Shown in pieces: positions 3,479 to 61,274 of a DNA stretch of 63,672 bases. The DNA is from Schmidtea nova (Eukaryota): NCBI GenBank assembly GCA_044892505.1, contig CM097882.1, positions 179,180,329 to 179,244,000 on the forward strand, written 5' to 3'. Under the pieces are notes generated by a model. It searched no databases and was not told where the DNA came from. It saw only the letters and a program-made list of their open reading frames with translations. Positions within the stretch are counted from its first letter, which is position 1; every line of letters begins with the position of its first letter. A program made the translations under genes and the position numbers.

Positions 3479-4476
3479 ATGTATCTTATCGATATGTATG
3501 GCTAACAGGCACATGCATTAATAAAGCATGACTAACAAAGACTGGAGTACACATGCATGTTTAACAAAGACATGGCAAAACACATGCAGCAATCTGATTG
3601 GATAAAGGCGAGTATAAAAATAAAGATCTCGACGAAATTAATCATAATTTTAAAATGCAATTACCAAATTTCAAACCTGTTCAAATGTTCCACAACCATA
3701 AAATGAATTTTTTGGAAGTACCGATAGAATTCAAATTTTCGTTTCCAATCAAGCTGACAAAGACTGAATTTTCATATCTACGATAGTCAATTTCTAATGA
3801 AGATAGTTATTCAATAAACCGAATATTTAGCCATCTCAATGTCAATAGGAATTGCAACAACATTATTATAAGCGACAAAGATTCAGTGTTTTGCTCGGCT
3901 TTTCGAGAGATAGCGTATATAGATGAAGCATATTGGTATGTAGACGCAATTATTAAAGGATATAAAACCTATCAGGAAAATCGTTCAAGTCCTATTTGGA
4001 AAATAGTGAAAACTGTACAAACAGTGGTGTAATATTAATAAAATTATTAAACAAATCTTTGAGTTTCCTATTATTTGATAAATTAATTTAAAAAATCTTA
4101 GAATTTATAACAACNNNNNNNNNNNNNNNNNNNNNNNNNNNNNNNNNNNNNNNNNNNNNNNNNNNNNNNNNNNNNNNNNNNNNNNNNNNNNNNNNNNNNN
4201 NNNNNNNNNNNNNNNNNNNNNNNNNNNNNNNNNNNNNNNNNNNNNNNNNNNNNNNNNNNNNNNNNNNNNNNNNNNNCTTTGCTGCAAAAATAATAATTTT
4301 ATTAAGTGAGAAAATTTTCGATTATCAAATAATCCTCGTCAATTGTTTTTGATAATTTAAAATTTGTGGCAAGTGTTGCCGTTGAGATAATTCGTGCACT
4401 CCTCCAGAATTTCGAATCAGAAAGGCTTGATATTCTGCCATCGTTGCTTGTCAAATGATACATATAAACTAAGGAT

Positions 4477-4836
4477 TTAATAGTCCACTTCGATATTCTT
4501 TTGTATGATTTCGATTTGACTCATATTCAAAACTCTCGGTTGAACCCATTTTACCATCAATTTCTCATTGACTTCATCGGCATCGGCTTCAACAGGTTTC
4601 GTTGTTGCTGCTGTCTTGACTACTTGACGAAATGCTTTCTTTTCTTCCTCGGAGAACGATTTTATATGATTAAACCATCTTAAAGCATAGAAATAGCAGT
4701 CTTTAATTGACGAACATGCTTGAAACACTTCAACATCAGCAGTAAATTGATAATATCCATTAACATGGTTTTCATTGAACATATAATTGTTCAATTTTAA
4801 TTGACCGATATCGATTTTTAGATTACCAAATTCCAT
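4477..4836 (-). CDS. Orphan 119-aa ORF of unknown function, probably element-borne
   Basis: Intronless ORF with protein-like composition. Its upstream region shares the ACAGACGCGAG motif with the region above the orphan ORF at 46785-47375. Confidence 0.4.
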   Translation of the reverse strand: MEFGNLKIDIGQLKLNNYMFNENHVNGYYQFTADVEVFQACSSIKDCYFYALRWFNHIKSFSEEEKKAFRQVVKTAATTKPVEADADEVNEKLMVKWVQPRVLNMSQIEIIQKNIEVDY

Positions 4837-5177
4837 ATTTTCAAATTTAAATCAAATTAAGAATTTTCAATTCCACAAAATTTTTATTAATCCAATTGAT
4901 TTAGATAAACAAAAAACAAATCGTCCAAAATTAGTTTTTATCCAAAAAAATCCAATCAAAAGAAATTAAACTACAAATTCAAATCAACTCCAATTAAATT
5001 CTAAAAATCAATCGATAAAACAAAAAGAATTAAAAATCCGTCAAAATTAATTCTAATAATCAAAAGGCATTTTTAAATCAATTTTGTCCCAACCAATCCA
5101 AGAACTCGCACACAGACGCGAGCACCCTCACCAAAGAACACACATCAAGCCTCCAAAACCGCACAGCACTCACCACA

Positions 5178-5531
5178 TGTCATTTCGAACCATTTTTCTG
5201 TTTTTTTAATTTTTCGACTCAAGTTAATAAAAATACAATCAATCGAACAAATAAATGTTCAAGAATAGGCAATTGAAAAGAAAATTCAACTGAAAATGCT
5301 CTTAAATAAGAATTACGTTTTTGTAAATCATGAGGTCGAATGAGAATTATTATCATTGTTATTATTGCTTTCCGAATCCGGTTTCACGAGATAAAATTAG
5401 AGACCAATTTTTACATCATGATCGAGGCTTTTTAATGCCCCCGCTAGATATGCGATATTTTCCTTTTGAAATTATTATTTGAAATTGGCCAAAAAGGTTA
5501 TCAATATTGAAATTTCAATTATTCCTCAACA
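5178..5531 (-). mobile_element. Putative 3' LTR of a BEL/Pao retrotransposon (~354 bp)
   Basis: On the minus strand a polypurine tract GGAGAGGGGGA (5542-5532) is followed by TGTTGAGG... and ends ...AATGACA at 5178. It lies downstream of the integrase ORF. Confidence 0.6.
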
Positions 5532-5671
5532 TCCCCCTCTCCTTGACAACTTGTCAATTCGCAGTTAACATACCTAAACCAAATTAGCATTAACAATCAC
5601 AATTTGCCACGACCACGACTAATAAAATTTAATTTCATTTTATATCCCTCTTAACTATTATCAGGCGCAAC

Positions 5672-6199
5672 TCATATTTTTTGGACTTTCTTAGCCAATT
5701 CTAATGGAAAAATTTTTACAATTGGTCTGGTTTTCTCTTTACCTTGACATTCAACCTTAACGACTCTGACCTTTCCATCACTACCTGGAATCAGTTCCTT
5801 AATTCTTGCTAACGGCCATCGACCTTCTAAAATATTCGGTTCTAAAACCCAAACAACGTCACCTACTTTGACATCTCCGTTTTCTTTCCACCATTTTTGT
5901 CTTGTACCCCACATTGGTACGAGTTCTTTCTGCCACCTTTCCCGAAAATGGTTCACTATCTCCAAAATTCTTTTCCATCTTCTTCGGTAATCTACTCTTT
6001 CATTAGGGGGGATATCTTCTGTTCGATCCAGTCCAGGCCATTTTGATAAAATAAAGTCATTTGGAGTTAGTGCAATATCCTCTTTGCCGTCACTGCATTG
6101 CACTGTCAAAGGGCGAGAATTCAACAAGCCTTCTACTTTTATTAACACTGTATTCAGTTCTTCATCCGAAATGTCAGCTTCCCCAATAATTATCTTCAT
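5672..6199 (-). mobile_element. BEL/Pao retrotransposon integrase C-terminus (DUF5641-like), 5'-truncated
   Basis: VEGLLNSRPLT, ALTPNDF, RRWKRILEIVNHFRERWQKE, VKVGDVVWV, WPLARIKELIPGSDGKVRVVKV, RPIVKIFPLE are typical BEL/Pao motifs. Confidence 0.93.
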
Positions 6200-6419
6200 A
6201 GCTTTCTTCGCTATCGATTGACGAGGATTATTTGATAATCGAAAATTTTCTCACTTAATAAAATTATTATTTTTGCAGCAAACGCTTATTTTGTTACTTA
6301 TTTATTAATTAATATAATACTTAATGCTGCTACCAAGGAATCACCATTTTATAATAATAATAATAATAATAATTTTTTTGGCATGCAATCCAAGTGCAAT
6401 ACAAATGCAATACAAATGC

Positions 6420-6610: not shown

Positions 6611-7719
6611 CATATCGCGGAGCTATAAACAGCCCCACTCGTACGGAATCACCCTCGCAACTTTCCCCACGGACGACGCACCTATTTATTTTATGATTCA
6701 AGTTTAAATCCGGAATCACTAAAGCAAAACATGTATAATTTCAAAAACTCATTTTTCAAATATTTTTTAAACCCAATTCAAAATTTACAGAAAACTTCCA
6801 ATTACACATTAAAAAATAAAAATATACTTGAGCAAACTCGCAAAGGTTTGCTTTCCTTGAATAATCAAATAAAATGACAAAAGCTGGCTGGTGGAATCAC
6901 TCAAAAACTGACTGTCCGCAATTTTGGTATCAGAAAAAGTGTTAAAATTATGAATTTTCAACGCCTATATGTACTATTTTTGAGTAGCTGTGTGTCCACT
7001 ATCAATACGGGTTGCTACACAAATGTTAGGAAAACTGTGAGTGTATGTGGCGGTTTTTCTCTCGATTTTCTCTCATCTTACCGACCCCAACACCAGTCTC
7101 TTGGACAATACGTGTAAGCTCGCATGCTGATTCTATCGATACTGCATGCACGAATTTTTCAAAATATTTTTCTGTTACTGTTTTTAGTAACGTTTTTATC
7201 ATTATTCAGAAATCTTAATACATTCTAAAATCCCAAATAACCAACCTCGTCATGTTTCGTGGAACATTATAACTATACCTATAACTATTATAACTATTAT
7301 AACTATACCTATAACTATAACATACTCATCAGCGCTTCACGGTTCGATAGCTACACCGATAATTTCATTTATGACGTGCAAACCAAGATAATGACCAAGA
7401 TTCAGTGTTTTATTTATTTAATTAAAAATTATTTCATGTAATTCTCGTTTTAACTATTAGTTTTCATTTTCTAAATATTTATTATTAAATTTTGTATGTT
7501 ACTTAAATAATTTATTTATTTGTTTTATATTAAGTTCAACTAAAATTAATTTTGCGGTTCCACCAGCCTAACATAAAGTATTTTTTTATTCAATAATTTT
7601 CATATTATTATTTGTAAGAATATAGATCAATTTTTTTGGTTGTTAAGTACATGCGATGTATATGCACAACGTTATTTTATGCGGGCCCGGAGCTAGGAAT
7701 GAATCAACGAGGGGCAATT

Positions 7720-8400
7720 ACTTTATTTTAATTTACCTTTATTTTTATTTTTATTTATTTTTATTTATTTTTATTTATCTTTATCTTTATTTTTATTTTA
7801 ATTAACCTTTAACTTGATTTATCTTTATCCTATTTTATTTTTATTTATTTTTATTTATCTTTATCCTATTTTACCTTAATTTTAATTTACCTTTATTTTT
7901 ATTTTATTTTTATGTTAATTTATCTTTATGTTAATTTACCTTTATTTTAATTTATTTTTTTTTGATTTACTTTATATAATTTTATTTTGATTTTGATTGA
8001 TTTTGATTTATCTTTATTTTGATTATTATTTATTTATCTTTATTTTTATTTATATCTATCTTTATCTTTATTTATCTTTATTTTAATTTACCTTTATCCT
8101 ATTTTGTCTTTATCCTATTTTGTCTTTGTCTTTATTTATTTTTATTTATTTTAATTTTAATTTAACTTAACCTACTTTAACTTTATCTTATTTTATCTTT
8201 ATTTTATCTTTATTTTATTTTACCTTTATTTTAATTTTTCTTTATCCTATTGTAACTTAATTTTTCTTAATTTTTCTTTATTTTTCTTTAAATTAATTTT
8301 TCTTTTAATTTATCTTTATTTTAATATATCTTTATTTTAATTTAACTTTATCTTATTTAACTTTATCTTATTTTACCTTTATTTTATTTTCTTTTTTTAA
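7720..8400. repeat. Low-complexity T-rich run of TTTA(T/C)-type units
   Basis: Almost entirely tttatt/tttatc/ttacct units. Confidence 0.9.
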
Positions 8401-8708: not shown

Positions 8709-9372
8709 TTAAAAAATAAACCTAATAATCCAAAATTAATAAACCAAAATTTATTAATTAAAGTTTGGTTTATTTATTTTACACCACATTGATTGGTTTG
8801 GGGGCATTTTTCTATTCAGGAAGGGCATTGCCCCCAAATGCCCCCATGGCGCTGGGCTTGATTTTATGTAAAATTATTAAATTAACAATTAATTATAAAT
8901 ATGTTCAAACTATAGTTAATTATGAATATATAAACAACACAAAATTTTCTTCGTTCATTGTAAAGGTTGCTTTGGGTTGTAACACGGGCATAAAAATTAA
9001 TAAATAATTTTAATCACTTAATAATACTAAATTACAGTGAAAATAATATATAAGAAGCTTGTATTGTTATAAAAATTTCAAAATTTCTAGTTAATATGTT
9101 AAATCGTATTCGGTATATAAATCTGAAATATTTTTTTAGGTTTTTAAATGCCAAAATTGTTGATTAAATTTTGTTACATATGCATTATATAAAAGCGGCA
9201 ATGTCAAATTTATGCTTCATTTAATTTTTAAATAACATTCTTAAATTTACCGAGAAAGTTTAATAGATATAAAAGATCCGCTTGTAATATTTTAACGAAG
9301 TCTAATTAAAAATTAGTAAATACATAAATGTACTTACCTAAATCATATATATATATATATTTTTTTTTTATT

Positions 9373-9612
9373 TCAATAATTCCTATAATGATGACTATAG
9401 ATCAAAATTTTTTTTATAAACAATAACACAATATTTCGGCACAGCCTTTATCAAGTGTGTATTTCAAATGTGTTTGAAATACACAATTGATAAAGGCTGT
9501 GCCGAAATATTGTGTTATTGTTTATAAAAAAATTTTGATCTATAGTCATCATTATGGGAATTATTGATAATAATAATAAAAAAGATCAAAGGTGAAAAAA
9601 GATAATTATGAT
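9373..9612. mobile_element. Palindromic Penelope-derived mini-element (copy 1) with two inverted hammerhead-like motifs
   Basis: Near-perfect ~195-bp palindrome at 9373-9567 plus a one-sided tail (aaagatcaaaggtgaaaaaagataattatgat). The same sequence recurs at 47805, 58616, 20017 and 60995. Confidence 0.85.
9426..9458 (-). ncRNA. Minimal type I hammerhead-like ribozyme motif, U3-A8 core variant
   Basis: ACAC-UUGAUAAA-GGC(UGU)GCC-GAAA-UAU-U-GUGU: stem I 4 bp, stem II 3 bp, palindromic stem III, NUH triplet AUU. Confidence 0.65.
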
Positions 9613-9730
9613 CATATATATATATATATATATATAATTTTATTTATTATTATTATATATTATATTAATTGTCAATAAGCGAAATTCTTTAAAATAACAA
9701 TTTTAAAAAGTTATTTACTTGAAAAGGTAA

Positions 9731-16244: not shown

Positions 16245-16247
<3 letters not shown>

Positions 16248-17360
16248 TCCCATCTTAGCCATCTTCTACATGAACTTTATAGAATCTAAGATCATATCTT
16301 TTTTTGAGAACAAAATACTTTTCTGGAAACGATACATCGACAACATCTTCATAGTCTCCACAATTCCTCTCAATCAAATCCTATCACACGCAAATTCTAC
16401 TAACACCAACATACAATTCACTTTTGAAACACCGAACACAGAAGGTAAAATACCGTTTTTAGATACCATGGTAAGTTTTACAAAAGGCCAAGATACACTA
16501 AATGCAAACACCGAGCTATATTCTAAAGGTTTACATAGTAGTCATATCCTCCCATGGAAAAGCCACGTTCCACTTCAACGCAAAATCGCATTACTAATAG
16601 GAGAAAGAAAAAGATCCATAAGAAACTGTTCAGGCGCAAACAAAATACAAGAAACATTAGAAAACTTCAAAATACGATTCCTCCAAAATGGATACCCTGA
16701 AGAATTTGTAAAGAAATACTTCCTTAACGAACCATACTACAATAAACGCAACAATAGGAAACGCCAGAAACACAATAACAATAACAAACACACAACATAT
16801 TTAAGATAACATTTCCTAAATGACACTACAGCCAACAAAATCACCAACATTTTTAATCAAACAGATTTGCCTATCCACATCTGTCCAACGTTCATAACCT
16901 CTGCACCGTTAAAATCACAACTCCGAAAGCCACCAATTTCCAACATCTCCAAACATAAATGTCTTTGCCGTTCCACAACCCGATGCTTTTGCTTTTCCAA
17001 AAATATAGTATATAAACTTTCTTGCCAAAAATGTGACGCTACTTACATAGGAGAAACACATAGAACTTTTCGCACCCGACTTAATGAACACACTAAAAAC
17101 AAAACTAGTAGTTATTACGAACACTGGAGAAAGTACATAAAACAACTCCATCTATAGAAGAAACAAATTCCAGATTCTACAAGAGGAATTCAAAATTTCA
17201 TTACAAAAATTAGCTTCCGAGACTTTTTACATAAAAAAATACAAACCATCCATCAACATTCAATTCGCACGAAAAAATTAAAATAAATTTTTTTCATCCA
17301 ATAAAATCATTATAAAATATAAAAAAATAATTAAGGTTACTATGTAGGATTAAGTTAATA
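16245..17360 (+). mobile_element. Penelope-like element 1 (RT C-terminus plus GIY-YIG endonuclease), 5'-truncated; its 3' end resumes at 20002 after a Tigger insertion
   Basis: WKRYIDNIF, GKIPFLDTMV, KWKSH-like SHVPLQRKI, LQNGYP, then KNIVYKLSCQKCDATYIGETHRTFRTRLNEH. Begins at a (TA)n tract. Confidence 0.92.
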
Positions 17361-19999: not shown

Positions 20000-20001
20000 T
20001 A

Positions 20002-20075
20002 TAACGATTGAATTACATACTTGATAAAGGCTGTGCCGAAATATTGTGTTGTTTATAAAAAAATTTTGATCTATA
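20002..20075 (+). mobile_element. 3' end of Penelope-like element 1 with a hammerhead-like motif (20017-20049)
   Basis: AUAC-UUGAUAAA-GGC(UGU)GCC-GAAA-UAUU-GUGU followed by gtttataaaaaaattttgatctata, near-identical to one arm of the palindromic family. Confidence 0.75.
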
Positions 20076-36300: not shown

Positions 36301-39300
36301 TTTTCCAAAACATTACAAAAACTTATCTTAATTTATGAAATTTTGAATCTAATTAAATGTTCAATTTTAACGTTATATATTTATTATAGGTCCTTTTTGG
36401 CTTTTTAAAATGTAATTTTTTTCACCTTTTCCAAATGAAACCCCCTTAAAATTTTATTTAAAAACATTTTATTATCCAGCGATTTTCAAATTTGTCAGAA
36501 ATTTAGTCAATAAAGTGAATAGTGTTTATTGATAGGTCATTTAAAAATGATTCTAAAAATAATAATAATAGTGTTTTATAAATGAAAATGAATAATGAAG
36601 TAAAACACTTACAATGTCTCCTAAATACGTGATTGGATCTCGGTTGTTGCATTCGGTCACCATAGTATGCAACGCCTCATTGACGCGGAAGTATGTTTTC
36701 TTTTTCATTCCAGCTGTTGTTCCCAGTTCCAATTGTCGACTAAGAAGTACCATTTTGTCTGTGGACATTTTTTCCGGCCACCTTCATAACACACATGAGT
36801 ATCTTATTACCAGAAAATTACCTAAAAATTAGACACGACTAAATATATTCAAATCAACTAACACTTGACAAAGGCTGTTCCGAAATTTGTCAATTTTTCA
36901 AAATTTCTTTTATCAATTATCTTTGGAAAAGGAAAATAATATAATAATAATAATAATAAAGCAAGATAACGTGGGACAGTAAGAGGACATAAATATTTAA
37001 TAAGGTCTTTAAGATCTGTGAAACTTATCCACTTTAATCAATATTTAGAAGTAATTAACTAATTATTATTAAATTAAATTGTAATTTATGATGAACTCAA
37101 TAGTCTGATGTATCTTACCTTTATATATACATATATCAAAAGTATTAATATCAAATATTTTATAATTAAAATAAAGTTAAATTAAATATGGCTTATAATA
37201 AATAATCAATATAGAAATCCTAAAAATCAGCCTCAAAGTATTTGTTTGAATATTACAAATTTTGACAGTTTTTTGAGAAATAAATTTTATTTTGTTATTT
37301 TAATTGTGGACGAAGAAAATATCAACAAAATTGAAACTAACAAGAGTTAAATCTAAGAAGTTCGTATACTTTCAAAATATTCATTCTACTGAAATAGTGC
37401 AAGCAAATAAAATAGACCAGAAAACAATTAGATTTTCTTCACTTTTAGTCTTTTTATTCCAGCGATTAATATTTATTATATATTTGACAAAAATATTAAT
37501 TAATTGCTTAAAAGAAAAATGTCATTAAAAGAAATATAAAAACAATTTCAAATATAATAAAACATTTCCCCGTAACAGATTATAATAAATATATAAAATT
37601 AGTTTAACGTCCTTATCAATATCTGTCATACCGAGGTATTTTATGAATGGTCGCAAAAATGGGTTTGTATTTATCATTTTTTAATTCCTACTGCACGTAT
37701 AAAATATTGAATACTGAAAAAATTCTCAAAATGCACTTATTTTATCTACTATTTTGGTAAAATCTTATAAATTTTATAAAAAATATTAATTTTACAAGCT
37801 ACTTTTGTTTTGCATAAAACAATTAGTTTTCATTTATCCAAAACTGCACTTTCTAAATTGAAATCCAAATTTGAAAAATTGATGCAGATTTGGGAATTCG
37901 GGGCATATGTTATACGGAAAATTTTAGACAACAAAGTGTCAACATGTATGGAATCATCGAATTCAATCCGTTGAAGACTTTACAGTAATATCATTAGTCG
38001 CAAAGATAAACAAAATACTAAATGAATAATAACAAAATGTAATTTGTGTTAAAATTTTGCGTGGTATCCATGTGGCGTGAATGAATTAATGCGTTATAAG
38101 GATTACGAAACTAATTCTGATTAATAAAATTGTAATGATTTTTCAGCTGTGAATTAACTTGCTCATTCATCGTAGCACATGTCAACTAATTTTCTTCATA
38201 AACTTTGGGAACAGTTTGACGATAAAATTTTTAAAATAGTTTTATGACATTACAAAAATAATATTGATTTAGATTTACTATTTTAATAGAGCTTTTTAAT
38301 TTTTAATTTCTATATATAAATTACTGATACTGAAAAAGTAACATTGCATTCGTCTCTGATTTTGAAAATTATCTCATAAATCAAACAATAAAACTTAAAT
38401 AATTGAAATTTTTTCGCGGTTTCTTTTTATTATCCGTTTTTTAATCTTAATTTGATAACTCAACAAATATAGACGCCTATAATATTTAAATTAGTTGATA
38501 ATTTAATAATATTTAACTGACTAATTGATGAAACCTAATTCACAAAATCAGTGGTTATTAACCGGTGGTCCATATAATCAAATGTGGTCTTTAAAGCCGG
38601 CAGTCATATTTTTTATTTTATCATTAAAATACACCTTTTAATAGATATTTTTAATTGATATCGTAATAGAGCTCATAATTATTATTTTCATATTTTTGAT
38701 ATATTTAGACTCGGGTAAAAGTATATGAAATAAGAGATTCATTATAAATTAATTTATTTTACTATATACTTGAAAAGCAAAACAGATATCAACAAAAAAG
38801 AAAATAACTTAAACTAGTTACAAAAATCGAAATAATTAGGGAGATGGTTAAAAAACAAGCTTATTTTAAAATTTTACTTTTTACCATAAATACGATTTGG
38901 AATGCTTTATAATATGAAAATTAAATTATACAGGATTAAGTAAATTGAAAATGATTTACAAAAATGTTATGGAATGTTTTTATAACCAAATTTATTAATG
39001 ATTGCTGCAATTTAAATATTATTTTTAATAATTAATATATTTAACTGATCCTAAATTTTAATCAGATTGCCGGGCGAAAGTGTTTTCCTCATGTTATTTA
39101 TTCACGTATTTGGCGATGGCCAAATTTACACAAAAATGAATTACGCCAAAATAAATGTTGCATTTACGGTTATGAAATGAAACTGGATTATGTATGCATT
39201 AATCCGTATCACTATGACCGAGTCGTACCGTCGGCGGTAGATATCAGTGAACTTAGTTTAACATCAAGTATCGAGGATTTAGGTGAATTTAGGTATCTAT

Positions 39301-46312: not shown

Positions 46313-46387
<75 letters not shown>

Positions 46388-47738: not shown

Positions 47739-47805
<67 letters not shown>

Positions 47806-50800
47806 TCATAATTATCTTTTTTTACCTTTGATCATTTTTTATTATTATTATCAATAATTCTCATAATGATGACTATAGATCAAATTTTTTTTTATAAACA
47901 ATAACACAATATTTCGGTACAGCCTTTATCAAGTGTGTATTTCACACACTTGATAAAGGCTGTGCCGAAATATTGTGTTATTGTTTATAAGAAAAAATTT
48001 TGATCTATAGNNNNNNNNNNNNNNNNNNNNNNNNNNNNNNNNNNNNNNNNNNNNNNNNNNNNNNNNNNNNNNNNNNNNNNNNNNNNNNNNNNNNNNNNNN
48101 NNNNNNNNNNNNNNNNNNNNNNNNNNNNNNNNNNNNNNNNNNNNNNNNNNNNNNNNNNNNNNNNNNNNNNNNNNNNNNNNNNNNNNNNNNNNNNNNNNNN
48201 NNNNNNNNNNNNNNNNNNNNNNNNNNNNNNNNNNNNNAATATTACTAATAATAATAATAATAATAATTTTGTCCTATAACCAACTTAAACAATTTCGATA
48301 ACTGGAAATACCCGAGTATTAATAATTTTTGAAAAAATTATATCTGTATGATGTTAATAATTAATATTTCACTGAAATATTTTGTTTCTTTTTGAAAACT
48401 TGCGTCAAGGTGGCTAGTTTCTTATGAAGATGCGAGTGAAATTTAATAATTAATTTAATTTTTTATTAATTACTTAACTATATCATTATTTTAACATATC
48501 GCGGAGCCGGAACAATTAAAAATTTCCAGCTCATTGGTTTTATTTTATTCATTGATAATCAATAGTGTCAAATTATTAATAGCTTTATCTTAATAATGGA
48601 TTTATCTATTTTAAATTTTCTATAATGAAGATGCTTCTTTTTTTCTATAGCAGACAATGTTTAAATAAATTTCTTTTGAATATTGAATTAACGACTTTTA
48701 GAAAAACTTTCTAGATACAAAAGTTTTATTATTCATTTTAACTATATTTTCCCCCCAAATCATTGAAATAAGCTGAATATGGGAAACCTAAATGGTGCAT
48801 AATTTATGTGATTAAATTAAACTATAATTTTAAATATTTAACAGCGTAGTGACGTATTTAAAAAAAAATCGATATATTTTTAGGGTTTCGATTAAATATT
48901 GGGCAAGTAATGTGAAATTTCTCAACTGAAAAGCTTTTAAAAATAAACATCTATATACAATAATATAATCTACTATCTAGACAAGATAGGACTTTTGTGA
49001 ACTTGGTTCGTTTCAAATTCTTTAAACCAATTTTTAAAGTATAATTTTTTTTATTAAAATAGAATTGCTGGTCTTTCCACAATTGATATTAAAATGACAA
49101 TTCTATTATTGGAAAATGATTTTCAAAGATTTTCTAAAAATATAGTTATCAAAATTAATTAATAAAATTACCAGAAAAAACAAAATATATTACATTTTAG
49201 TTGATAATTATCCAATGAAGGCTAATTTTCAATGATAAAATTAAATATTAACTTCTCTATTGTTTCATTTAATTACGACTATTTGATAATGGAATAATAT
49301 GTTATTTTTTAAATCTACTTGTGTAAAAATTAATATAACTAATTAAGGCATGTCAAAAGATATTTTATCATATAAAAAAAGAGAATATCGAGTTATAAAG
49401 AAACTATTAAATGAAATAGATTTAAAACATTTTTAGTTTTACATGATATCAAGATAAAATCCCAATCATTGTAAATTTCTAAATTTTTAGAAGCCTACGG
49501 AGTTCTATTTTTTTTATAAATTTTAATAAATTTTAATAATTGATTAATGACTTAATTAGCAATGAATTATTATTCTAGAAATTCCGTGCTTTCATAATAA
49601 TATCATTTTTGAGTTGTTTGATTCATTAAATTTCAAAAAAAATATTACTTCAAAAAATCTTTTGTTTATGAATTAAAAAAAGGAAATAAAAATAATTTAT
49701 TTGCCTTTTAACTTTGTTTAAATCGCAATATCTTTGGCGCCATAACTCGTTATTGTTTATAATTTATTATTCTCAACAATATATATATATATTAGTCATT
49801 TTGGCGTCTTATTTTACACGTAAAGCGATCTAAATACAATGATTTCGTTCAAAGCTTGTTTGAATTAATAAATACATGTCTGGCTAAACAATTATTTAAA
49901 GACAAATTTAAGTAACAGATTTTAAATAAAGCTTTTCTAGAATTGATTTTTTTGAAAATAACTAAAATTTCTGAATGCTAGTTAATTAATTATTGACATT
50001 ATTATTCATTAAGAAAGTAAATGTCAGGCTTTATTTAGAGTGTTTCTGAGTAACATAATTCGATATAAAGTCTCAAGAACAATAAAGTATTAACTGAGTT
50101 TTTGACAAATTTTTGTTTTTTAATTTATTTATTAAACTTGCTAGTCATCAGCAATAACTTTTGTAACTTAGTTTGACTTGAATTCTCTATTTTCGTAATT
50201 TGTTCTATTTTAGTAATAAATTGAATTACTGGTTAAAAATTTTGATTTGACATATTTGAATTTCAACATTTTGTAAAAATTATTTAAATAAAATTGATAT
50301 GAAAATTAGTTAATTAAAAAAATAAATATTTCACTCTATATTTCACTCTTAAATTCACTCAAAACTAAAATTTCATAACTAAATTTAATTTTAAAACACA
50401 AGAACAATATATTTCATATAATATATTGAAAAATTTCAACTTGAAATCTCTATAAGGAAATTGTTCATAATATGGACATATGGATCAAACTTATATAACA
50501 TATTTTAGATATAATTACGTTATCTCTTTAACCCGAAGTTAATGAATAGATAAGAATTTATATTGAAATAAGGAAATAACACTAAATTTGACATATCAAT
50601 ATTTTTAAAATTGACCCACTTTCCCTGATCGGATCGATCTGAAGTTTTGACAGCATACAGTGTTCTCGACAACGAATCTTATTGCCAAATTTCAGCTCAA
50701 TCCGCTCACGAAAGTAATATGGCCTCACAAAATTTGCGTGGGGATACAAACATCAGCGAAGTTAATATAGAGAGAGTAAATATATTAAGTGAAACCAAAA

Positions 50801-52742
50801 AATAATTATTATATATGGAGATGTAAAAGTTAACTTCAAAAAAACCCCGGACAATTAACATTTCATTTCGATTCTCGAGTAATTTGAGATATTTTTTTAT
50901 GAAATTGAATCGAATCTAAATCAATTACTAGAGCCAAATCCAACTCAAATTCAAAATAAATTGAATTTAGATAGCGCTCTAAATCAGAAATTAGAAATTT
51001 CCATTCAAAACACTTTTAAAACACCTCATACTATCCACAAACCTTTTACATTTTTTACTAAAAAAATTAAAATTTACGAAACATCGTTTATATTAACAGA
51101 AGTTTTAAAAATGTCATAAAATTTATCTAAAGACCATAAAGTCAATTTCAACACAAAATTAAGGAATCTTTCAACTTTGGATAACATTTTATCGAAAAAA
51201 AACGAACACATTTATCCAATATGCCTATAAAAGTTTTCTGTGTCATTTCTTTTTCAAAACTTTATGTAATGAAGATTTTTATTTATTAATTTTATATTTA
51301 TTTTCTATTTATTACTTCTTATGTGATTTGAATTAACAGATAGATAAATAATTATATATTCGGTGAAAGAAAGTTGTTTTAATTGAAGCTTGAGAATTCT
51401 CGAGAAATCTCAAGAACTTTGAAAATAATTTTCGATTTAACGAAAATAAAAACGAAAGAAAAATCACCAATTCTGTTTGAAATTATTTAAAGTGTTTTGT
51501 AAAAGACATTTTTTCTAAAATAATGAATGTTTGATAAAGTATTTCATTTCCAGCCTTTACAAGCCTTAACTCACCAAAGACCACCTGAATATTGGTGCAC
51601 AATTGCATATTTTGAACTTAATCAGCAAGTTGGTGAATTATTTAAAGTACCAAGTCAATATTCATGTGTAACTGTTGATGGATATACAGATCCGTCAAGT
51701 CCTAATCGGTTCTGCCTCGGTCAACTGTCGAACGTTCATAGGTTTTAATTTTAAATTTACTAATACCGTTACTGTTATTTCAAACAATATAAATTCTAGG
51801 TCTGAATCATCTGAGAAGTCACGTCTTTATATAGGTAAAGGAGTTGAACTGAATAATGTCGGTGAAGGGGATGTGTGGATTAGATGTTTATCAGCTCATT
51901 CTGTGTTCGTACAAAGTTATTATCTGGATAGAGAAGCCGGCCGACAGCCAGGAGATGCTGTTCATAAAATTTATCCAGGTGCTTACATAAAAGTAATAAT
52001 ATTTTTTAATTATATAAAGTTCGAGTATTTATAATATATTTATAATATACATTTATCAAAAATAAATGCTATTATTATCATTAGCCTGGCCTCAATTTTT
52101 ATCAGTATGGGCATTTTAATATGACTGATAAATTTATTAAATTTTGTATTATTTATTATTAATATTATTTTTATTTATTTTATTATGAGTTTTTTAGGGA
52201 ATATAAATAATATTGTTAAAATAATTAAATTTTATTTACTTGATTATTTATTATTAATATTTTACGGGCATTTAAATAACATTAATAAAATTATAAATAA
52301 ATAAATAAATTTTTATTTATTTATTATTTATTTTATTATTATGAGTTTTTTGGAAAGTTAAATAAAATAATTAATTTTATTATTAATAATAAATATATTT
52401 TTAAGCATTCAAACACCATTAATAAAATAATTGATTTTTTTTATTTATTATGAATTTTATTATGAATGTTTTGAAAATTAAAATAAAATAAATAATTTTT
52501 ATTAATCTTATTATTAATAATAAATATATTTTTTGGGCATTCAAGCACCATTGATAAAATAATTTATTTATTTTTTATTTATTATGTATTTTATTATGAA
52601 TGTTTCGGAAATTAAAATAAAATTAATAAAATAAATAATTTTCATTAATCTTATTATTATTAGTAAATATATTTTTTGGGCATTTAAATAACATTAATAA
52701 AATAATAAATAAATTTTTATGAATTTTTTGGAAAGGTTAATA

Positions 52743-52776
<34 letters not shown>

Positions 52777-55700: not shown

Positions 55701-58700
55701 TAGGAGTGGGAATAACTTGTAATTCTTGTTCATAGAATTTCCCACTGACTATATTGTTATCAGAGTCAGAAATAGTATACATGACAGGATTCTGGACTGT
55801 GTTGACTTTCTAATGCCTAGGCCTAGTTATCGAACTTAGGCTTGCGTATATAGTATTTAGGCTACGTTTACTTTAACTAGAGCTTTCAGATTCGATTAAT
55901 AAGAAACTTAGTTCTATTTCGAGTGAGAATTCATAAATTTCAAATATAGTTAACTTTTTAAAAAAAACCACACTAATTTAAATTTTTGATCAGCCCTAAT
56001 TGGAAGTTGATAACTAATAAAAACCTTAGTAAATGGAATTCCGCCCTAATCGAGGAATTCCTATAATTTTTAATTACTTTTATATTAATAATTAATATAT
56101 TTTTGGGAATTTAAATACCAGTTTAAATTTTAAAAACATTTAAATTTTATTTATTACTTATTTTATTATGAGTTTTTTTTGATTAGGCCATCCGCTGAAT
56201 GATGACAAGGGCTTGAAAATATAATTTTAATGTTGTGCTCCTTCATTAAAATATCCATAGTTTTGCTATAAAATGCTTTACCCCTGTCACAATGCAGAAA
56301 TCTCGGTGCTCCATATTTTAAAATCCAATTGTTTCTTAAAATTGTTGTAACGGTTTTTCGGTCTTGTGATTTTACTGTGTGTAGTGTAACATATTTACTA
56401 AAACTATCGATAATTCCTACGATATATCTCATTCCATACTCACTTTGTTTTAGCGAACCACAAAAATCTATAAATATTGTTTCAAAGAAACCTGATTCTG
56501 ACATTTTACAAATTTTCTCCTAACTCCGTGTAGTTGCAACTTTCCATTTTTGACAATTTTCACAACTTTGAACAACGTCTTGGATCAATCGTTTCATGTC
56601 TCATTACAAAATTATTTGACACATTTCTCAACTTTCATTGGTCCAGCATGACACAGTCTCTTATGATACTTTTTAATGAATTCAATTCTTTTATCATCCG
56701 GAATCCACATTTTATTGTTTTCTGTAATTACTCCACTCTTTATTATGAATTTGTTGTCCTCCTTTTGTTTTATGTTGTTTATGATTTCTGGAATTTCTTT
56801 TAAATTCCTTTGCTATTCTTGTTTCTGTCATGATTGTCAAAAGCTTCGTTTTGAGTTTTTCTGTCTTTGGATTAACATGGATGGTTTGGCAGTGAACGCA
56901 CGTCATATATTGGTCTCTTGACAGTTGCTTTGCGATGTTCTTCTCCTTTCCTAAATTGAAATTCTATTTCCAAACTACTTAAATAATTGATCCATGACTG
57001 GAATTGTGGAGTGATAGCTTTCTTTGTCTTCAGCATATAGGTTATGGCTTTGTGGTCCGTGCTTAGTATAAATCTTTTCCCATAAAGATAATGTTTAAAA
57101 TGGTTTTTAAAGCAATAGATTGCTAAAAATTCTTTTCTGGTAATGTAATAACCCACGTCATGTTTCAAAATGGCACGCGATCTATAAGCAATAACAGCTA
57201 ATACAATCGATGCTAACATCCCTATCGAATATGAAGGTTTTTGAAAAATCAGGAAACTTTAATATTGATGCATTAATTAACATATCTTTAAGTTTCCTAA
57301 ATGCACTTTAAATTTTTCTGTCCAAATCAACACTGCTTTTCTAGATAAATTTTCTATAGCAATTAGTTAACCCTAAAACTCCTCAAATTTTCGAATTCTT
57401 TTACTGCTTCAATTTTTTCTTCCTCTGTCTTTACTCCATCTTTGCTAATTATGTCCCATGAACTTTACTTCATCTTTCAAAAATTGACATTTTGACGAAC
57501 TAATTTTTAGTTCCGCTTGTTCTATTTTATTGAAAACGTTTTCAATATTTTCGTAGTATTCTTTTCATTATTTTGAAAATATAAGAAAACCATACAAAAC
57601 ACTATCGAAATTTGCTAATTAGTTCACCTAATCTTTGTTCATTAATTTTTGAAAAGTTGCGGGAGCTGCTACTATTCCAAATGGTATCTGATTAAAGCAA
57701 TATCTGTTTTTGGTAGAAAATGCTGTCTTCAGTCTTGATTCTTCCTCAAGCTCCATTCTCTAAATCAATTGTGCTGAAATATTTTGCACCTCCCAACGGA
57801 TCTAATAATTCATTTGCATTCGGGATTGGAAATATTTGTCGTTCTGTGATATTGTTTAGTGCTTTAAAATAGAGACAAATTCCTACATCGTTTTTATCTT
57901 TTTAACACACATTAAAGGTGTGTTTATGACGACTTACATTATGTTATAATTCCGATTTTTTATATCTAATATATATCTTTCTAATTAGATGGTCTGGCGT
58001 CGTCTTAGATTTATCACAATAAGTCTTCCTGATGTTAAAATTTCATGCATCATTAAATTTGTCTTACCCACATCCTATTTATGTTTCTTAAAAATTGACT
58101 CAAATTTTCTGCATAATTCTCTAACATTGATTAGATTTGCTCACTTCTTTTACGTTTTTCATTCCAACAATATTTACATCGTCCTTTAATAAACTGCTCC
58201 TAATCTTTAACAAATCGAATTTTCTTAAAAGTCTTTTTCTCCAATTACTTTTGGTGAAATCTCTTTGGCCAAAATAAATTTAATTATTCTCGTCTTTTTT
58301 GTTCCCACTATTTGAACTACAATATTTACTTTTCCAACTATAGATGCTGTTGACATATTTGCATATCTCAAAGAAACATAGCATTTCTCCAAACTAAACT
58401 TTTCTGTCTTTTCTAATATACTTTCATTAATCACACTGTCATTTGTTACTATGTCTAATAAACAACACACTTCGGTCTCATTGATCAATTTTGTGGTCTA
58501 CCATTTAATTTATTATATTTAATTATATTATTATTATTATTATTATTATTAATATTATTATTATTATTATTATTAATATTATTATTATTATTATTATTAT
58601 CATCATCATCATCATTAATTCTCATAATGCTGACTATAGATCAAAATTTTTTTTATAAACAATAACAATATTTCGGCACAGCCTTTATCAAGAAATACAC

Positions 58701-60888
58701 ACTTGATAAAGGCTGTGCCGAAATATTGTGTAATTGTTTATAAAAAAAAATTTTGATCTATAGTCATCATTATGAGAATTATTGATAATAATAATAAAAA
58801 AGATCAAAGGTGAAAAAAGATAATTATGATATTATTATTATTATTATTTACATTAATATTACAAACATACTCGACATCTCCAAAATCATCTAATCTCAAT
58901 CCATTATTACACCATTCACTATAAATATTTGCATCGGAAACGCATTTACAATTATCATTATTAATTACATGATCATTTCTCATCATTTATTACTGTTAAG
59001 TAAATTGTTACTAGTTGTACTATAATTAGTGGATGATTTGCTTTTTTATAGGTGATTATGATTTAGAGAGAATATTTTTATGTTTTATTATGATATGAAA
59101 TATGTAAAGGAAGTAATGTAGAGCCCAGCAGAGCCTCTTGTAAAACTTGTACCCGGGACTGCTGGGGTGAATGCTGTGTTGGTTCAGTAATTGGGGGGGC
59201 TTGAGTGCTGGTATGTATTATTAAACAAATTTCGATGAAAAGTAAGAATTAACACTTCTCACAGTGAACGGGGTTTTATAATCTTCTTTGGTTCGAGAAA
59301 TTCTAGTGTTCAAGGATTAGCTTCAGTTACTTTCTTTCTATTTCTTTTGATTTTCTGGGCAAGTTCTTCAATTTCGGAATTGAAATTTTTATCTAATTTC
59401 CTATTCGTATACTTTTAAAATTTGGTTATTGTTCTTTGTTCTCTTTATTATTCTTGTGTTTTCGCAATATTCCGTGATTCTCTAGTTTTCGTCTTGTCTC
59501 GGGTAATTCTTTTAATATTTTCCTAGGCGATTAGGTATTTAATTTGCAATTCTTTCTTAACGCTTTCTTAAATTTTCTATCGTTATTTTTACTGTCAATA
59601 TTTTCTAAATTGTCATGGACAATTGATTTATTCCGTATTTTTAAATTTAATTTTTTAATTCTTTAAATTGTTATTAATTGCCCATTATTCAAAATGATAA
59701 AAATAATAAAAGAAAGGGGGGTTGTTATGTGTCCGACCGGACGTCCACAATGAATTGCAAAACTTAAACAGATTACAAATTTGCTTATCTCTTCAAGCAC
59801 GACATCGAAATTCATCTTTTCTTAATAATATTATTACGTGCGATGACAAATGGATTTAATATTATAACCGTAAGCGGTCAGGAGAATGATTGGATAAACA
59901 TTAATGCCCAAATCAGTTTCCAAAACCGGAACTTCATTAAAAGAAAGATGCTCTCAGTCTGGTGGGTAAATGGGTAAAACAATCAGTTCTGAACGATACT
60001 GTGTAGAACTGGAAAAAATACATGAAAAACTCACCATTAGTCACCCTGCAATTGTTAATAGAAAAGGTCCAATTATCCTGCATGATAATGCCAGGGCTCA
60101 CATATTGAAAGTCACTCTAAAGAAATTTCACGACTTAGGATTTGATGTTTTACCGCATCTACTTTACTCACCCGATATATCACCAGAGGATTTCAACTTA
60201 TTTAGACATTTAAGTGTTTATATCAAGGGCAGGAAGATCAAAGATTTGGAGGATATAAAATCGACAGTTATCACTTTCTTGGACTTCAGACATGAGACTT
60301 TTTAAAGAAGGTATATAAAAGCTCTCGCAACGATGGCAAGATTGTATTAATGTTGATGGATAATATTTTGATTAAATGATAAATGTTTAAATAAATTTGT
60401 ACGCCTTTTGAATTATAATCAATTTAGCGGACATTTAATTCCGGGCAACATAATAATTAATTTTTTCAGTCATGACTTAATGTTATTAAATTTTAATACA
60501 ATTAAATTTCTCGAAAATCATAAAATTATGATAATCAGTTTTATTTCTAGTGATTAATTAAAATACTTTTCAATTCTTATAATTGACATTAATTATAGGT
60601 TTTTGATATAAGACAGTGCCACCAACAAATGAAAAAAGCAAGTACAGAAGCTCAGTTAGCATGGGTTCGTCAGGCTGCAGTAGTAGCTGGTAGTAGTAAC
60701 TCTATCACGTCTACAGTCGGTAATCAAGGATCTAACTCTTTAAATAATCTCAGTGCAGCTGGAATTGGAGTAGACGATCTGAGTCCGTTTTGTGTTTTGA
60801 GGTTAAGCTTTGTAAAAGGTTGGGGGCCGGATTATCCTCGTCATAATATTAAAGAAACTCCTTGCTGGATCGAAATTAAACTCAACAG
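33089..60888 (+). CDS. smad4: Smad4 (co-Smad) gene span: 7 coding exons, 1688 nt (562 codons plus 2 nt); last exon not found in the window
   Basis: MH1, NES-like motif, linker and MH2 join in frame with GT-AG introns of matching phase. Diagnostic L3 loop KGWGPDYPR. Confidence 0.95.
34120..34750 (-). mobile_element. Tigger-like remnant (terminus plus HTH start)
   Basis: Terminus CAGTAAGTCCTCGACTTACGGC on minus at 34750; [22 protein letters not shown] resembles a pipsqueak-type HTH. Confidence 0.6.
35800..36180 (+). pseudogene. pogo transposase N-terminal fragment (BrkDBD/CENP-B HTH-like)
   Basis: [11 protein letters not shown]...[20 protein letters not shown]...[24 protein letters not shown] pogo-type terminus (rc CCGTATTGACCCGAATATAAGAC) lies at 35028-35050. 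Confidence 0.65.
36553..36830 (-). pseudogene. MULE transposase C-terminal fragment
   Basis: [31 protein letters not shown] resembles the MULE C-terminal ...Y..L..IA motif (recollection). Confidence 0.45.
39066..39282 (+). CDS. smad4: Smad4 exon 2 (MH1 C-half plus NES-like motif)
   Basis: [26 protein letters not shown]...[23 protein letters not shown]; atcag acceptor, phase-1 donor. Confidence 0.95.
39330..39413 (+). CDS. smad4: Smad4 exon 3 (linker), after a 47-nt intron
   Basis: Phase 1/1, stop-free: [28 protein letters not shown]; flanked by tgtag and gtattt. Confidence 0.8.
41231..41694 (+). CDS. smad4: Smad4 exon 4 (Ser/Gln-rich linker)
   Basis: Phase-1 acceptor ttaaag keeps the 41245 ORF in frame; donor gtgagt at 41695, phase 0. 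Confidence 0.88.
42027..42700 (+). mobile_element. Decayed mariner element
   Basis: TIR-like tacttggtaaggctcaaaagtccc; [16 protein letters not shown]...LGIRKLCSR and [22 protein letters not shown]. Confidence 0.75.
42778..43259. mobile_element. Tc1/mariner-type MITE (482 bp)
   Basis: TA on both sides; 21-bp TIRs cacataattctgtttttacac vs rc cacttaattctgtttttacac. Confidence 0.75.
43910..43951 (+). repeat. Three copies of a 14-bp GGACAAAATGGTAC unit
   Basis: Read directly from the sequence; possibly subterminal repeats of a DNA transposon. Confidence 0.85.
44145..44183 (-). ncRNA. Minimal hammerhead-like ribozyme motif (CUGAUGA core)
   Basis: AGA-CUGAUGA-U-GAGGAC(UGU)GUCCUU-GAAA-UAUAU-U-UCU. 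Confidence 0.7.
46252..46290 (+). ncRNA. Hammerhead-like motif in the inverted arm of Penelope 2
   Basis: AGA-CUGAUGA-U-GAGGAC(UAU)GUCCUU-GAAA-UAUAU-U-UCA. Confidence 0.65.
46314..46386. repeat. (AAT)n microsatellite; further tracts at 47740-47803, 44060-44095 and 58520-58600
   Basis: Read directly from the sequence. Confidence 0.95.
46785..47375 (-). pseudogene. Orphan ORF of about 190 codons with at least one internal stop
   Basis: [48 protein letters not shown] then, in the same frame past stops, [11 protein letters not shown]...LGGVILGKN...FLMNPQID*. Confidence 0.4.
47805..48010. mobile_element. Palindromic Penelope-derived mini-element (copy 2, tail on the left), cut by an N-gap
   Basis: Arms meet at caagtgtgt-atttc-acacacttg. 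The hammerhead-like motif at 47946-47978 (+) is intact; the copy at 47904-47936 (-) has a stem II mismatch. Confidence 0.85.
51554..51741 (+). CDS. smad4: Smad4 exon 5 (MH2 start)
   Basis: [34 protein letters not shown]...[22 protein letters not shown](R); acceptor catttccag. Confidence 0.95.
51800..51992 (+). CDS. smad4: Smad4 exon 6 (MH2), after a 58-nt intron
   Basis: [17 protein letters not shown]...[42 protein letters not shown]; phases 2/0. Confidence 0.95.
52110..53497. repeat. Degenerate AT-rich tandem array (~150-bp units), resuming at 56066-56175 after the Tigger insertion
   Basis: Recurring ttattatgagttttt(a)ggaa and ta(a/c)cattgataaaataatt motifs. Confidence 0.75.
53498..56063 (-). 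mobile_element. Tigger DNA transposon (2566 bp) with a frameshifted transposase
   Basis: TA TSDs; TIRs caggaatccctcgattaaggcg vs rc taggaattcctcgattagggcg. Fragments [50 protein letters not shown]. Confidence 0.92.
55579..55800 (-). pseudogene. Polinton-type integrase C-terminus with chromodomain, inside the Tigger element
   Basis: [23 protein letters not shown]...[31 protein letters not shown]. Confidence 0.7.
56166..58490 (-). mobile_element. Decayed Gypsy pol (protease, RT, RNase H, integrase)
   Basis: [14 protein letters not shown] (protease), [24 protein letters not shown] (RT), [29 protein letters not shown] (RNase H), IFIDFCG...DSFSKY...LHCDRGKAF (integrase). Confidence 0.93.
58616..58830. 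mobile_element. Palindromic Penelope-derived mini-element (copy 3)
   Basis: Arms meet at tcaag-aaatacaca-cttga; hammerhead-like motif at 58699-58731 (+); inserted in (ATT)n/(ATC)n. Confidence 0.85.
59730..60455 (+). mobile_element. Decayed mariner element (DD34D type) with a 3' TIR
   Basis: [48 protein letters not shown]; terminus cggacatttaattccgggcaacataata. Confidence 0.9.
60599..60888 (+). CDS. smad4: Smad4 exon 7 (MH2 helical bundle and L3 loop)
   Basis: [11 protein letters not shown]...QAAVVAG...[44 protein letters not shown](R); donor gtaaag, phase 2. Confidence 0.96.
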
Positions 60889-60994: not shown

Positions 60995-61112
60995 TCATAA
61001 TTATCTTTTTGTTTCACCTTTGATCTCTTTATTTTTCCATCAGTACTTTCCATTATAATATGATTATAGATTAAACACTGATCTATAATCATGTTATTAT
61101 GGAAATTATTGA
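60995..61112. mobile_element. Degenerate, internally deleted copy of the palindromic family (ribozyme part lost)
   Basis: tcataattatctttt..tttcacctttgatc tail plus attatagat...atctataat...ggaaattattga. Confidence 0.55.
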
Positions 61113-61274
61113 TAGTTAATACTTTATCCTGAAATTCATTATAAATTCCAAGGCGGTAATCCAGCTGGTATTAAAATAATAAAATTTTACACCTCTTCCT
61201 GCAGTGTTCTTTCACCTTTTCAGAAATATGAGCTCGGCATGATACCCAAACAATACATCTACCATTACTTACAT

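What the first reader, a model, noticed from the sequence alone, without database searches (positions are those of the whole stretch)
9373..9612. Multicopy foldback mini-element made of two inverted hammerhead-like ribozyme motifs with a compensatory U3-A8 core
Seen: a ~195-bp palindrome plus a ~45-bp one-sided tail occurs at 9373, 47805 and 58616, with degenerate copies at 60995 and 36861. The three main copies sit in (AAT)n or (TA)n tracts. Each arm contains ACAC-UUGAUAAA-GGC(UGU)GCC-GAAA-UAU-U-GUGU. Known: the hammerhead core is C3 U4 G5 A6 N7 G8 A9...G12 A13 A14, C3 pairs with G8, and Penelope-like elements carry minimal type I hammerheads with palindromic stem III that act as dimers. Here positions 3 and 8 are both switched (U3-A8), so the tertiary pair is kept. 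The three hairpin apices differ (4-nt loop, 5-nt loop, asymmetric deletion), suggesting separate snap-back events or tip erosion. Inference: a non-autonomous, ribozyme-bearing foldback retroelement mobilised by Penelope RT, whose transcript could also form a ~95-bp dsRNA hairpin.
Basis: partly seen in the sequence, partly recalled or inferred. Interest (0 to 1): 0.85.

Follow-up and report, generated by a model that had tools for sequence, protein, structure and literature searches.

The report
Penelope retroelement stubs recording RNA ends
These palindromes are short head-to-head end pieces of a very abundant Penelope-type jumping gene, a known kind of structure, but their fold-back points pile up at two fixed places that likely mark where the element's RNA starts and where its predicted self-cutting ribozyme would cut.

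Summary
The foldbacks are not a separate element: each arm is 94-96% identical to the 3' end (pseudo-LTR) of an autonomous Penelope-like element (PLE) in the same genome (2.76-kb unit, 865-aa RT + GIY-YIG frame; a 1.1-kb piece lies in this window). The ribozyme 21-mer has 43,926 exact matches; at least 6,707 short foldbacks exist. The U3-A8 core, opposite-strand hammerhead pairs, inverted pLTRs and the one-sided tail are all in print. The two motifs lie on opposite strands and would be buried in the hairpin, so the foldback is not a ribozyme dimer. Apexes recur across subfamilies, so foldbacks are likely remade at each insertion. What I did not find in print: arm 5' ends stop at a hard edge 10-12 nt before the core (46 of 78 arms end at -13..+5; 1 of 30 copies that came through the ORF do), and a smaller class stops at the predicted cut (341 sites against 61 and 37 in control windows). 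That suggests a genomic record of the start of the RNA and of ribozyme cleavage in the cell. No RNA data were available, and a second PLE family did not show the cut-site class.

The parts
9373..9612 (.). Foldback copy 1: two head-to-head PLE 3' ends (pLTR stubs), tail on the right, in (TA)n
9373..9465 (-). Tail-less arm; 5' end at -11 (U3 of the core = 0, at 9454); intact minimal hammerhead 9465-9422; predicted cut between 9430 and 9429
9466..9475 (.). Ten extra bases at the apex, not in the parent at this place
   Evidence: L001 row: -11, -11, insert 10
9476..9612 (+). Tailed arm; 5' end at -11; core U3 at 9487 (first stem I pair broken by C>A); predicted cut after 9511; parent's start codon at 9554
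9575..9612 (+). One-sided tail (about +88 to +126; left border blurred by AAT repeats) = early codons of the parent ORF, between the two 3' ends used by the family
47805..48010 (.). Foldback copy 2, tail on the left; arms end at -11 and -5; right arm runs into N
58612..58830 (.). Foldback copy 3, tail on the right; arms end at about -12 and -1
16245..17360 (+). 5'-truncated piece of the parent PLE (RT end, thumb, GIY-YIG, 3' UTR), 96% identical to the intact unit, frames broken
20000..20075 (+). Hammerhead end of the same copy, separated from 16245-17360 by a 2,639-bp insertion
60995..61114 (.). Old decayed foldback of the family without the ribozyme
36861..36890 (+). Lone decayed hammerhead motif of the family

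Best explanation
The palindromes are head-to-head copies of the last 100-140 bases of an autonomous Penelope-like retrotransposon that sits in this genome, likely made anew at each insertion when its reverse transcriptase starts near the 5' end of the element's own RNA and runs off that end after a short way. Shown: the arm is the pLTR (minimal hammerhead, UTR, first codons) of a 2.76-kb RT + GIY-YIG unit; copies end at two 3' sites (about +88 and +126), one per arm; arm 5' ends stop at -10 to -12, a smaller class at +24 to +26; insertions sit mostly in (AAT)n/(TA)n with 12-14-bp target duplications. Inferred: the endonuclease nicks AT-rich DNA on both strands; the RT primes at the two internal sites, which on an RNA that begins at -11 and runs into the ORF lie only 100-140 nt from the 5' end; the two short cDNAs (or one cDNA and its fold-back copy) are joined at the apex through 0-2 bases of microhomology. 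The -11 edge is likely the transcription start; the +25 edge is likely the 5' end left by hammerhead cleavage. Long and tandem copies would come from templates without these ends (read-through of tandem arrays or a circular RNA). The stubs are likely dead on arrival.
For: Arm identity to the parent and tandem units of 2,762-2,767 bp with an open 869-codon frame; RVT_1 in the parent, RVT_1 in 16 of 16 and GIY-YIG in 11 of 16 aligned proteins; the same one-tail head-to-head build at arm lengths of 0.7-2.7 kb. Exact counts fall 49,356 (+62), 43,926 (core), 12,449 (19 nt upstream of the core), 4,458 (RT), 1,027 (ORF start). 46 of 78 arms in the first 2.0 Mb of C1 end at -13..+5. Foldback joins: 6,707 just upstream of the core (control 5), 37 about 40-60 nt further upstream (control 13), 341 in the window holding the cut (control 35), 61 about 30 nt downstream of it (control 6). 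In the list 27 of 46 have the longer arm ending at +24..+26 (hand count; P 4.5e-8 if uniform over 14 places). Only 1 of 30 copies that come out of the ORF and reach this region stop at -13..+5 (P 5e-10), so the edge is not a plain RT stop or a deletion hot spot of the sequence. Tail on one arm only in 111 of 113 held foldbacks. The same apex recurs in different subfamilies; a marked subfamily has long copies too (3 of 30). One foldback's tailed arm runs 42 bases into the ORF before its target duplication, so its template ran into the ORF. Relatives keep the motif behind the ORF with compensatory changes. Two internal RT start sites bounding the tail, cleavage of both strands at ATT and a need for ORF sequence beyond the tail were shown in vitro for an Anolis PLE (PMC11167929).
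Against: No RNA evidence for a start at -11 or a cut at +25. A second PLE family in the same genome (C3-G8 core, 1,152 exact matches) shows neither class: 29 of 30 copies extend at least 70 nt upstream of its core and foldbacks at its predicted cut number 8 against a control of 4, all chance-like; the family is about 40 times smaller and the products would be very short, so this is a weak negative. In the predicted fold of a 141-nt RNA from -11 through the tail the ribozyme pairs are minor (0.07-0.11 for stem I, 0.37 for stem II) and the stem III palindrome duplex is only -0.2 kcal/mol. If RNAs starting at -11 read through to a downstream tail, full-length copies ending at -11 should exist; I saw none among 30, which needs the extra assumption that such RNAs end earlier (an AATAAA lies at -81). 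19 of 46 sites in the list extend upstream of +24. In 17 of 70 foldbacks the tail-less arm is the longer one at the apex, which a pure snap-back of the tailed cDNA does not predict. RNA-seq reads ending at the cut were not found for the Anolis element.
Confidence: 0.75

Rival explanations
1. The 138-nt arm is a SINE-like non-autonomous element with an internal promoter: stubs are transcribed from -11 and remobilised by the PLE protein, the foldback being rebuilt at each round (closest to the first reader's idea).
For: Stubs outnumber long copies about 2.5 to 1; the hard edge is missing from through-ORF copies; Drosophila Penelope has an internal, TATA-less promoter (PMC2377424); older subfamilies are mostly stubs in my loci.
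Against: Every subfamily tested has long copies; one foldback template ran into the ORF; the Anolis protein needs ORF sequence beyond the tail, which stubs lack; most stubs sit in a perfect hairpin.
Confidence: 0.12
2. The +25 class is not cleavage but an RT stall or template jump at the folded (or dimerised) ribozyme, or the tail of the -11 class helped by the AATATT palindrome.
For: 5 of 46 sites pivot on the palindrome at +19..+24 and 14 more extend further upstream (hand count); RT must unwind stem I, whose 3' strand begins at +25; family 2 lacks the class.
Against: The pile-up is 3 nt wide and sits on the predicted first base of the 3' product; in the list 9 of 15 distinct loci have the longer arm at +24..+26, 6 at +28..+30 and none clearly further up, the shape of a hard edge as for the -11 class; a stall should also hit through-ORF copies (0 of 42 end at +24..+26, though only about 2-3 would be expected).
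Confidence: 0.35
3. The whole foldback transposes as one unit, as a retroelement with a working ribozyme dimer or as a DNA-transposon MITE.
For: Some apexes are common (one symmetric apex recurs many times in the list); terminal inverted repeats and target duplications are present.
Against: Dozens of apex forms, the common ones predicted by 2-nt microhomology and shared by different subfamilies; arms are the PLE end; one-sided tail; 12-14-bp duplications; the two motifs are antisense to each other and base-paired in any foldback RNA.
Confidence: 0.03
4. The -11 edge is a splice acceptor (cis intron or spliced leader), as in D. virilis Penelope, where the intron ends at the 5' side of helix I.
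For: An AG lies at -12/-11 in the youngest subfamily and many arms end at -10; PMC4209133 describes that intron position.
Against: Older subfamilies have TG there and give the same edge; bases added beyond -11 are local re-copies and share no common upstream exon.
Confidence: 0.08

Closest known systems
C-terminal endonuclease Penelope-like elements (Neptune/Nematis type by linker), with inverted pLTR and one-sided tail (Arkhipova et al. 2013 PMC3846280; Craig et al. 2021 PMC8557442)
   Same: Single RT + GIY-YIG ORF, tandem units, pLTR overlapping the first codons, inverted 5'-truncated copy, 30-40-bp tail on one end, palindromes at the inverted junction, microsatellite targets, target duplications.
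   Different: Very short foldbacks are the main product here (at least 6,707; an estimated 29,000 arms), with a fixed 5' edge. The linker has lost its first cysteine and reads CxC. Clade not tested by a tree.
Minimal type I hammerheads of metazoan PLEs, U3-A8 variant (Cervera and de la Pena 2014, PMC4209133)
   Same: U3-A8 pair, extra base between A9 and stem II, G10.1-C11.1, palindromic 15.2-16.2, short stem I, opposite-strand pairs.
   Different: Stem II is only 3 bp (7-8 bp in their Schistosoma families); one nearly invariant motif in about 44,000 copies; pairs lie only 0-40 bp apart.
Poseidon element of Anolis (PAc; Frangieh et al. 2024, PMC11167929)
   Same: Two internal RT start sites bounding the tail, AT-rich targets, hammerhead near the ORF start.
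   Different: Here the ORF starts 66 nt after U3, downstream of the cut; a genomic class of copies begins at the predicted cut, whereas they found no RNA-seq reads ending there.
Non-LTR retrozymes (Li, Clavereau and Pollet 2026 preprint, 10.64898/2026.07.22.740005)
   Same: Non-coding, hammerhead-bearing repeats derived from PLE pLTRs.
   Different: Retrozymes are head-to-tail tandems with same-strand ribozymes; these are head-to-head pairs with no sign of own amplification.
MITE / Foldback DNA transposons (recalled, no call)
   Same: Palindromic, non-coding, high copy, AT-rich targets.
   Different: No transposase link; asymmetrical ends; sequence is a retroelement end.

Membership tests
Penelope-like element (EN+) | One ORF with RT and C-terminal GIY-YIG endonuclease | tested here: met
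   865-aa frame; RVT_1 E 1.3e-7; GIY-YIG in 11 of 16 aligned proteins though not above threshold in the parent itself; VYxxxCxxC..YIGET..R...H motif aligned; PHROG endonuclease E 0.014
Penelope-like element (EN+) | Tandem or partial-tandem units forming pLTRs, direct or inverted | tested here: met
   Units at 2,762-2,767 bp spacing and inverted partners
Penelope-like element (EN+) | 30-40-bp tail on one end, overlapping the ORF start | tested here: met
   3' ends at +84..+103 (33) and +121..+134 (41) of 78; 111 of 113 foldbacks have one tail; start codon at +66
Penelope-like element (EN+) | RT groups with PLE clades in a tree | not tested
   No named reference set of PLE clades was on hand; homologues are unnamed RT + GIY-YIG proteins
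Neptune/Nematis clade | CX2-5CxxC linker before GIY-YIG | tested here: inconclusive
   Homologues have a three-to-four-cysteine linker; the parent has CxC plus a later C and lacks the first C (definition)
Minimal type I hammerhead | Core with paired 3-8, GAAA, U16.1-H17, stems I and II, palindromic stem III | tested here: met
   Lowest-energy fold of the 47-nt motif has stems I and II; 4 of 4 motif hits in 16 metagenome loci sit behind the ORF, 2 with C3-G8 and 2 with U3-A8, with changed but paired stems; subfamily-level changes are absent from -11..+27 and start at +28
Minimal type I hammerhead | Match to an Rfam hammerhead model | tested here: not met
   No hammerhead family at E <= 10; whether these models can score a motif without helix III was not checked
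Minimal type I hammerhead | Self-cleavage | not testable with these tools
   Only indirect: copies ending at +24..+26
Non-autonomous element that moves as its own unit | Clades of copies with shared ends and private variants, absent from the parent | tested here: not met
   Apexes shared across subfamilies; long copies in each subfamily looked at; only one marker was tested genome-wide
Non-LTR retrozyme | Head-to-tail tandem units each with a same-strand hammerhead | tested here: not met
   Arms are head-to-head
MITE | Symmetric terminal inverted repeats shared with a transposase element; fixed short target duplication | tested here: not met
   One-sided tail, 12-14-bp duplications in 15 of 22 readable non-simple flanks, ends shared with an RT element

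The most novel reading that the evidence does not exclude
Thousands of dead stubs are a fossil 5'-end map of a Penelope RNA in the germ line: most start at the transcription start 11 nt before the ribozyme, several hundred start exactly at the hammerhead cut, and long tandem copies come from an end-less (circular or multimeric) template. This would be genomic evidence that a minimal U3-A8 hammerhead cleaves in the cell and that the cut RNA is still reverse-transcribed, and it would explain why Penelope elements need tandem copies to move whole.
Probability: 0.4. Interest if true: 0.7.

Novelty: new member of a known kind. Interest (0 to 1): 0.42.

Why it matters
Whether the weak minimal hammerheads of animal PLEs cut in vivo, and how PLEs make their inverted ends and tail, are open questions (PMC4209133, PMC11167929, PMC8557442). 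This family gives tens of thousands of natural junctions with base-level edges, so both can be tested by counting, and by one 5'-end sequencing run. For annotation: such palindromes will be called MITEs or microRNA hairpins (one search gave microRNA models at E 1e-8 to 1e-11, below their cut-offs) and may be a large source of double-stranded RNA.

Tried and rejected
Rfam scan of 9300-9700: no hammerhead, only generic hairpin matches below gathering scores. Sequencing runs: no RNA holder listed; three of the four listed runs (unknown kind, contigs, one study, possibly the source of the assembly) were laid on the parent end and show loose ends at -9 to -11, which speaks against an assembly artefact but says nothing on RNA. 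Count of pivots at +24..+33 with an AT-rich pattern: 938 against a control of 802, unusable as a count; only its listed sites were read, 8 of them checked in DNA and all real. Family 2 cut-site search: negative. PDB search: nothing significant. DNA alignments of the hammerheads were out of register, so no formal pair count was run; pairings were read from the sequences. Co-folding two motifs did not give the hammerhead dimer. Arm-to-arm marker agreement (88 of 88 callable for a 3-bp indel; 63 shared changes against 9 in shuffles, where some asymmetric foldbacks were counted twice; 21 of 22) cannot tell one RNA from two RNAs of the same subfamily, so snap-back versus twin priming stays open. 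Lunse et al. 2017 (PMC5785218) was not held; it may describe similar variants. The host was not identified; paper searches with a guessed host group gave nothing relevant. Earlier findings of this scan: none for this genome or sequence.

Full report
Numbering: U3 of the hammerhead core is 0; the predicted cut lies between +24 and +25.

1. Observation. Three of six arms carry the intact motif. The copy at 60995 has no ribozyme, the one at 36861 is a lone decayed motif, and a further motif at 20000-20075 was missed. Copy 2 runs into a masked stretch, so its right end is unseen.

2. What it is. A search of the own genome (1.25 Gb) with one arm gave 679 candidates, 40 scored, at 93-100% identity. 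Several loci continued upstream into endonuclease and RT coding sequence. Longer stretches showed natural tandem units of 2,762-2,767 bp with an open 869-codon frame (865 aa from the first ATG). The protein has RVT_1; its homologues (234 at E <= 0.001, best 51% identical) carry RVT_1 and GIY-YIG. The arm is the unit's end: hammerhead, 40 nt of UTR, the start codon at +66 and the first 20 codons. The window holds a 96%-identical 1.1-kb piece of this element at 16245-17360, whose hammerhead end at 20000-20075 was pushed away by a 2.6-kb insertion.

3. Numbers. Exact genome counts: 49,356 for a 21-mer at +62, 43,926 for the core, 12,449 for the core with 19 upstream bases, 4,458 for the RT motif, 1,027 for the tail-to-ORF junction; reversed controls 0. 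These are exact-match counts of different words, so they are lower bounds and only roughly comparable. All 78 sites listed in the first 2.0 Mb of C1 were fetched: 46 end at -13..+5, 5 at +24..+33, 3 at +6..+23, 2 beyond +33, 2 at -30..-14, 20 further upstream (a few local duplicates not removed). 3' ends: 33 tail-less, 41 tailed, 4 into the ORF. Of 74 3' flanks, 47 are (AAT)n/(ATT)n, 8 (TA)n, 19 other. Among 113 distinct foldbacks held (gathered by several searches, not a random sample), 111 have the tail on one side; 67 join with 0-2 bases of overlap; 15 of the 22 whose duplication is not a simple repeat have 12-14 bp.

4. The ribozyme. The 47-nt motif folds at lowest energy into the minimal hammerhead, with stem I extendable to -9 past one bulge, so the -11 edge is also the 5' border of the motif. 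Subfamily-level changes are absent from -11..+27 and begin at +28 (the anchor allowed 4 changes, and some foldbacks were counted twice). Of 16 related metagenome loci, 4 gave a motif hit, all behind the ORF: two C3-G8, two U3-A8, with changed but paired stems I and II and a CG or UA palindrome; the closest relative has a decayed U3-A8 motif. A second PLE family in the window has C3-G8. So the motif is a hammerhead by comparison. Cleavage is untested. In a longer RNA the fold is minor, and a transcript through the foldback would pair the motif with its own complement.

5. Two edges. Foldbacks joined within 17 bases between the two cores: 6,707 (control 5). A like window 40-60 nt upstream: 37 (control 13). 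The window holding the predicted cut: 341 (control 35). A window about 30 nt downstream: 61 (control 6; its anchor misses the subfamilies with the 3-bp insertion). Of the 50 sites listed, I dropped 3 chance-like and 1 same-locus repeat; by hand 27 of 46 have the longer arm ending at +24..+26, 5 pivot on a palindrome at +19, 14 lie elsewhere in +13..+23 (P 4.5e-8 under a uniform spread). 26 of the listed sites were read in DNA and 25 were real elements. The 50 sites listed reduce to 15 loci (35 tandem copies and one duplicate counted once): 9 at +24..+26 (one can be read as +22), 6 at +28..+30. Then 40 regions were fetched around tail-to-ORF junctions, chosen from the first part of the 100 listed and leaving out sites with an upstream tandem neighbour and one site already held; they hold 42 junctions, 41 running on into the ORF to the edge of the fetched DNA. 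Their 5' ends are scattered: 1 of the 30 that reach +5 ends at -13..+5, against 46 of 68 (P 5e-10). The site already held is a -8 foldback whose tailed arm goes 42 bases into the ORF and ends at a 12-bp duplication. Thus the -11 edge belongs to short products and not to the sequence as such. Family 2 shows neither edge.

6. Does the foldback move as a unit? The common apexes are those given by 2-base microhomologies and recur in old and young subfamilies. A subfamily marked at +28 (1,595 exact matches) has 22 foldback arms, 3 long copies and 5 others among 30 loci. Arms of one foldback share subfamily markers, which fits one template or two templates of the one active subfamily. The tailed arm is longer at the apex in 40, equal in 13, shorter in 17 of 70; pure snap-back of the tailed cDNA predicts no third class unless later deletions occurred, so priming on both target strands followed by end joining is at least as likely.

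7. Mechanism. See Best explanation. Shown: identity, ends, edges, targets. Inferred from the Anolis work: internal priming at the two tail borders, nicks on both strands. Inferred from my counts alone: start at -11, cleavage at +25, and end-less templates for long copies.

8. Literature seen. PMC4209133: parts 1-2 of 4 (abstract, results, discussion). PMC11167929: parts 1-2 of 4. PMC3846280, PMC8557442, PMC6765202, PMC2377424, PMC9977147, PMC6155905: passages only. Preprint 10.64898/2026.07.22.740005: part 1 of 5 and passages; its supplements are closed. No supplements were read; those of PMC4209133 and PMC11167929 (motif alignments, coverage of genomic copies) may bear on novelty. PMC5785218 was not held. 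Eight full-text searches (listings only, apart from the papers named) showed no paper that maps genomic PLE 5' ends to a start site or to the hammerhead cut; most subscription papers are not in the library. MITE features and the transposon labels in the passing notes are recalled.

9. Verdict. The structure and the U3-A8 core are known; this is a new, very abundant family of a known kind. The two sharp 5' edges are the part worth following. Interest 0.42; novel reading 0.4 likely, 0.7 if true.

Noticed in passing
window 44111-46324: Second PLE family: head-to-head copy in (AAT)n with about 550-bp inverted ends, RT piece (231 aa) and a C3-G8 hammerhead (cores at 44180 minus and 46255 plus); 1,152 exact matches in the genome, 30-nt one-sided tail, no short-stub class.
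   Followed up: partly
window 17361-19999: 2,639-bp insertion at a TA inside the PLE copy, with a 182-aa frame that looks like a pogo/Tigger transposase piece (label recalled).
   Followed up: no
window 30372-32132: Open 586-aa frame resembling a hAT transposase (label recalled).
   Followed up: no
window 4278-6282: 66-bp perfect inverted repeat 1.87 kb apart around a 192-aa frame resembling the end of a BEL/Pao integrase (label recalled).
   Followed up: no
G000:C1:3074736-3152459 (L224): At least 35 copies of one ribozyme-less foldback amplified in a local array over about 80 kb.
   Followed up: partly
L047, L060, L147, L177 (G000): Further hammerhead motifs with C3-G8 cores in the same genome, among them one with a canonical short stem III, possibly from other PLE families or a retrozyme.
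   Followed up: no
L178, L105, L041 (G000): Some copies of the oldest subfamily have C at position 17 in place of U, the triplet usually held to cleave better (recalled).
   Followed up: no
window 7700-8400, 52100-53500, 840-1220: AT-rich minisatellite-like arrays (16-bp, about 80-bp and 41-bp periods).
   Followed up: no
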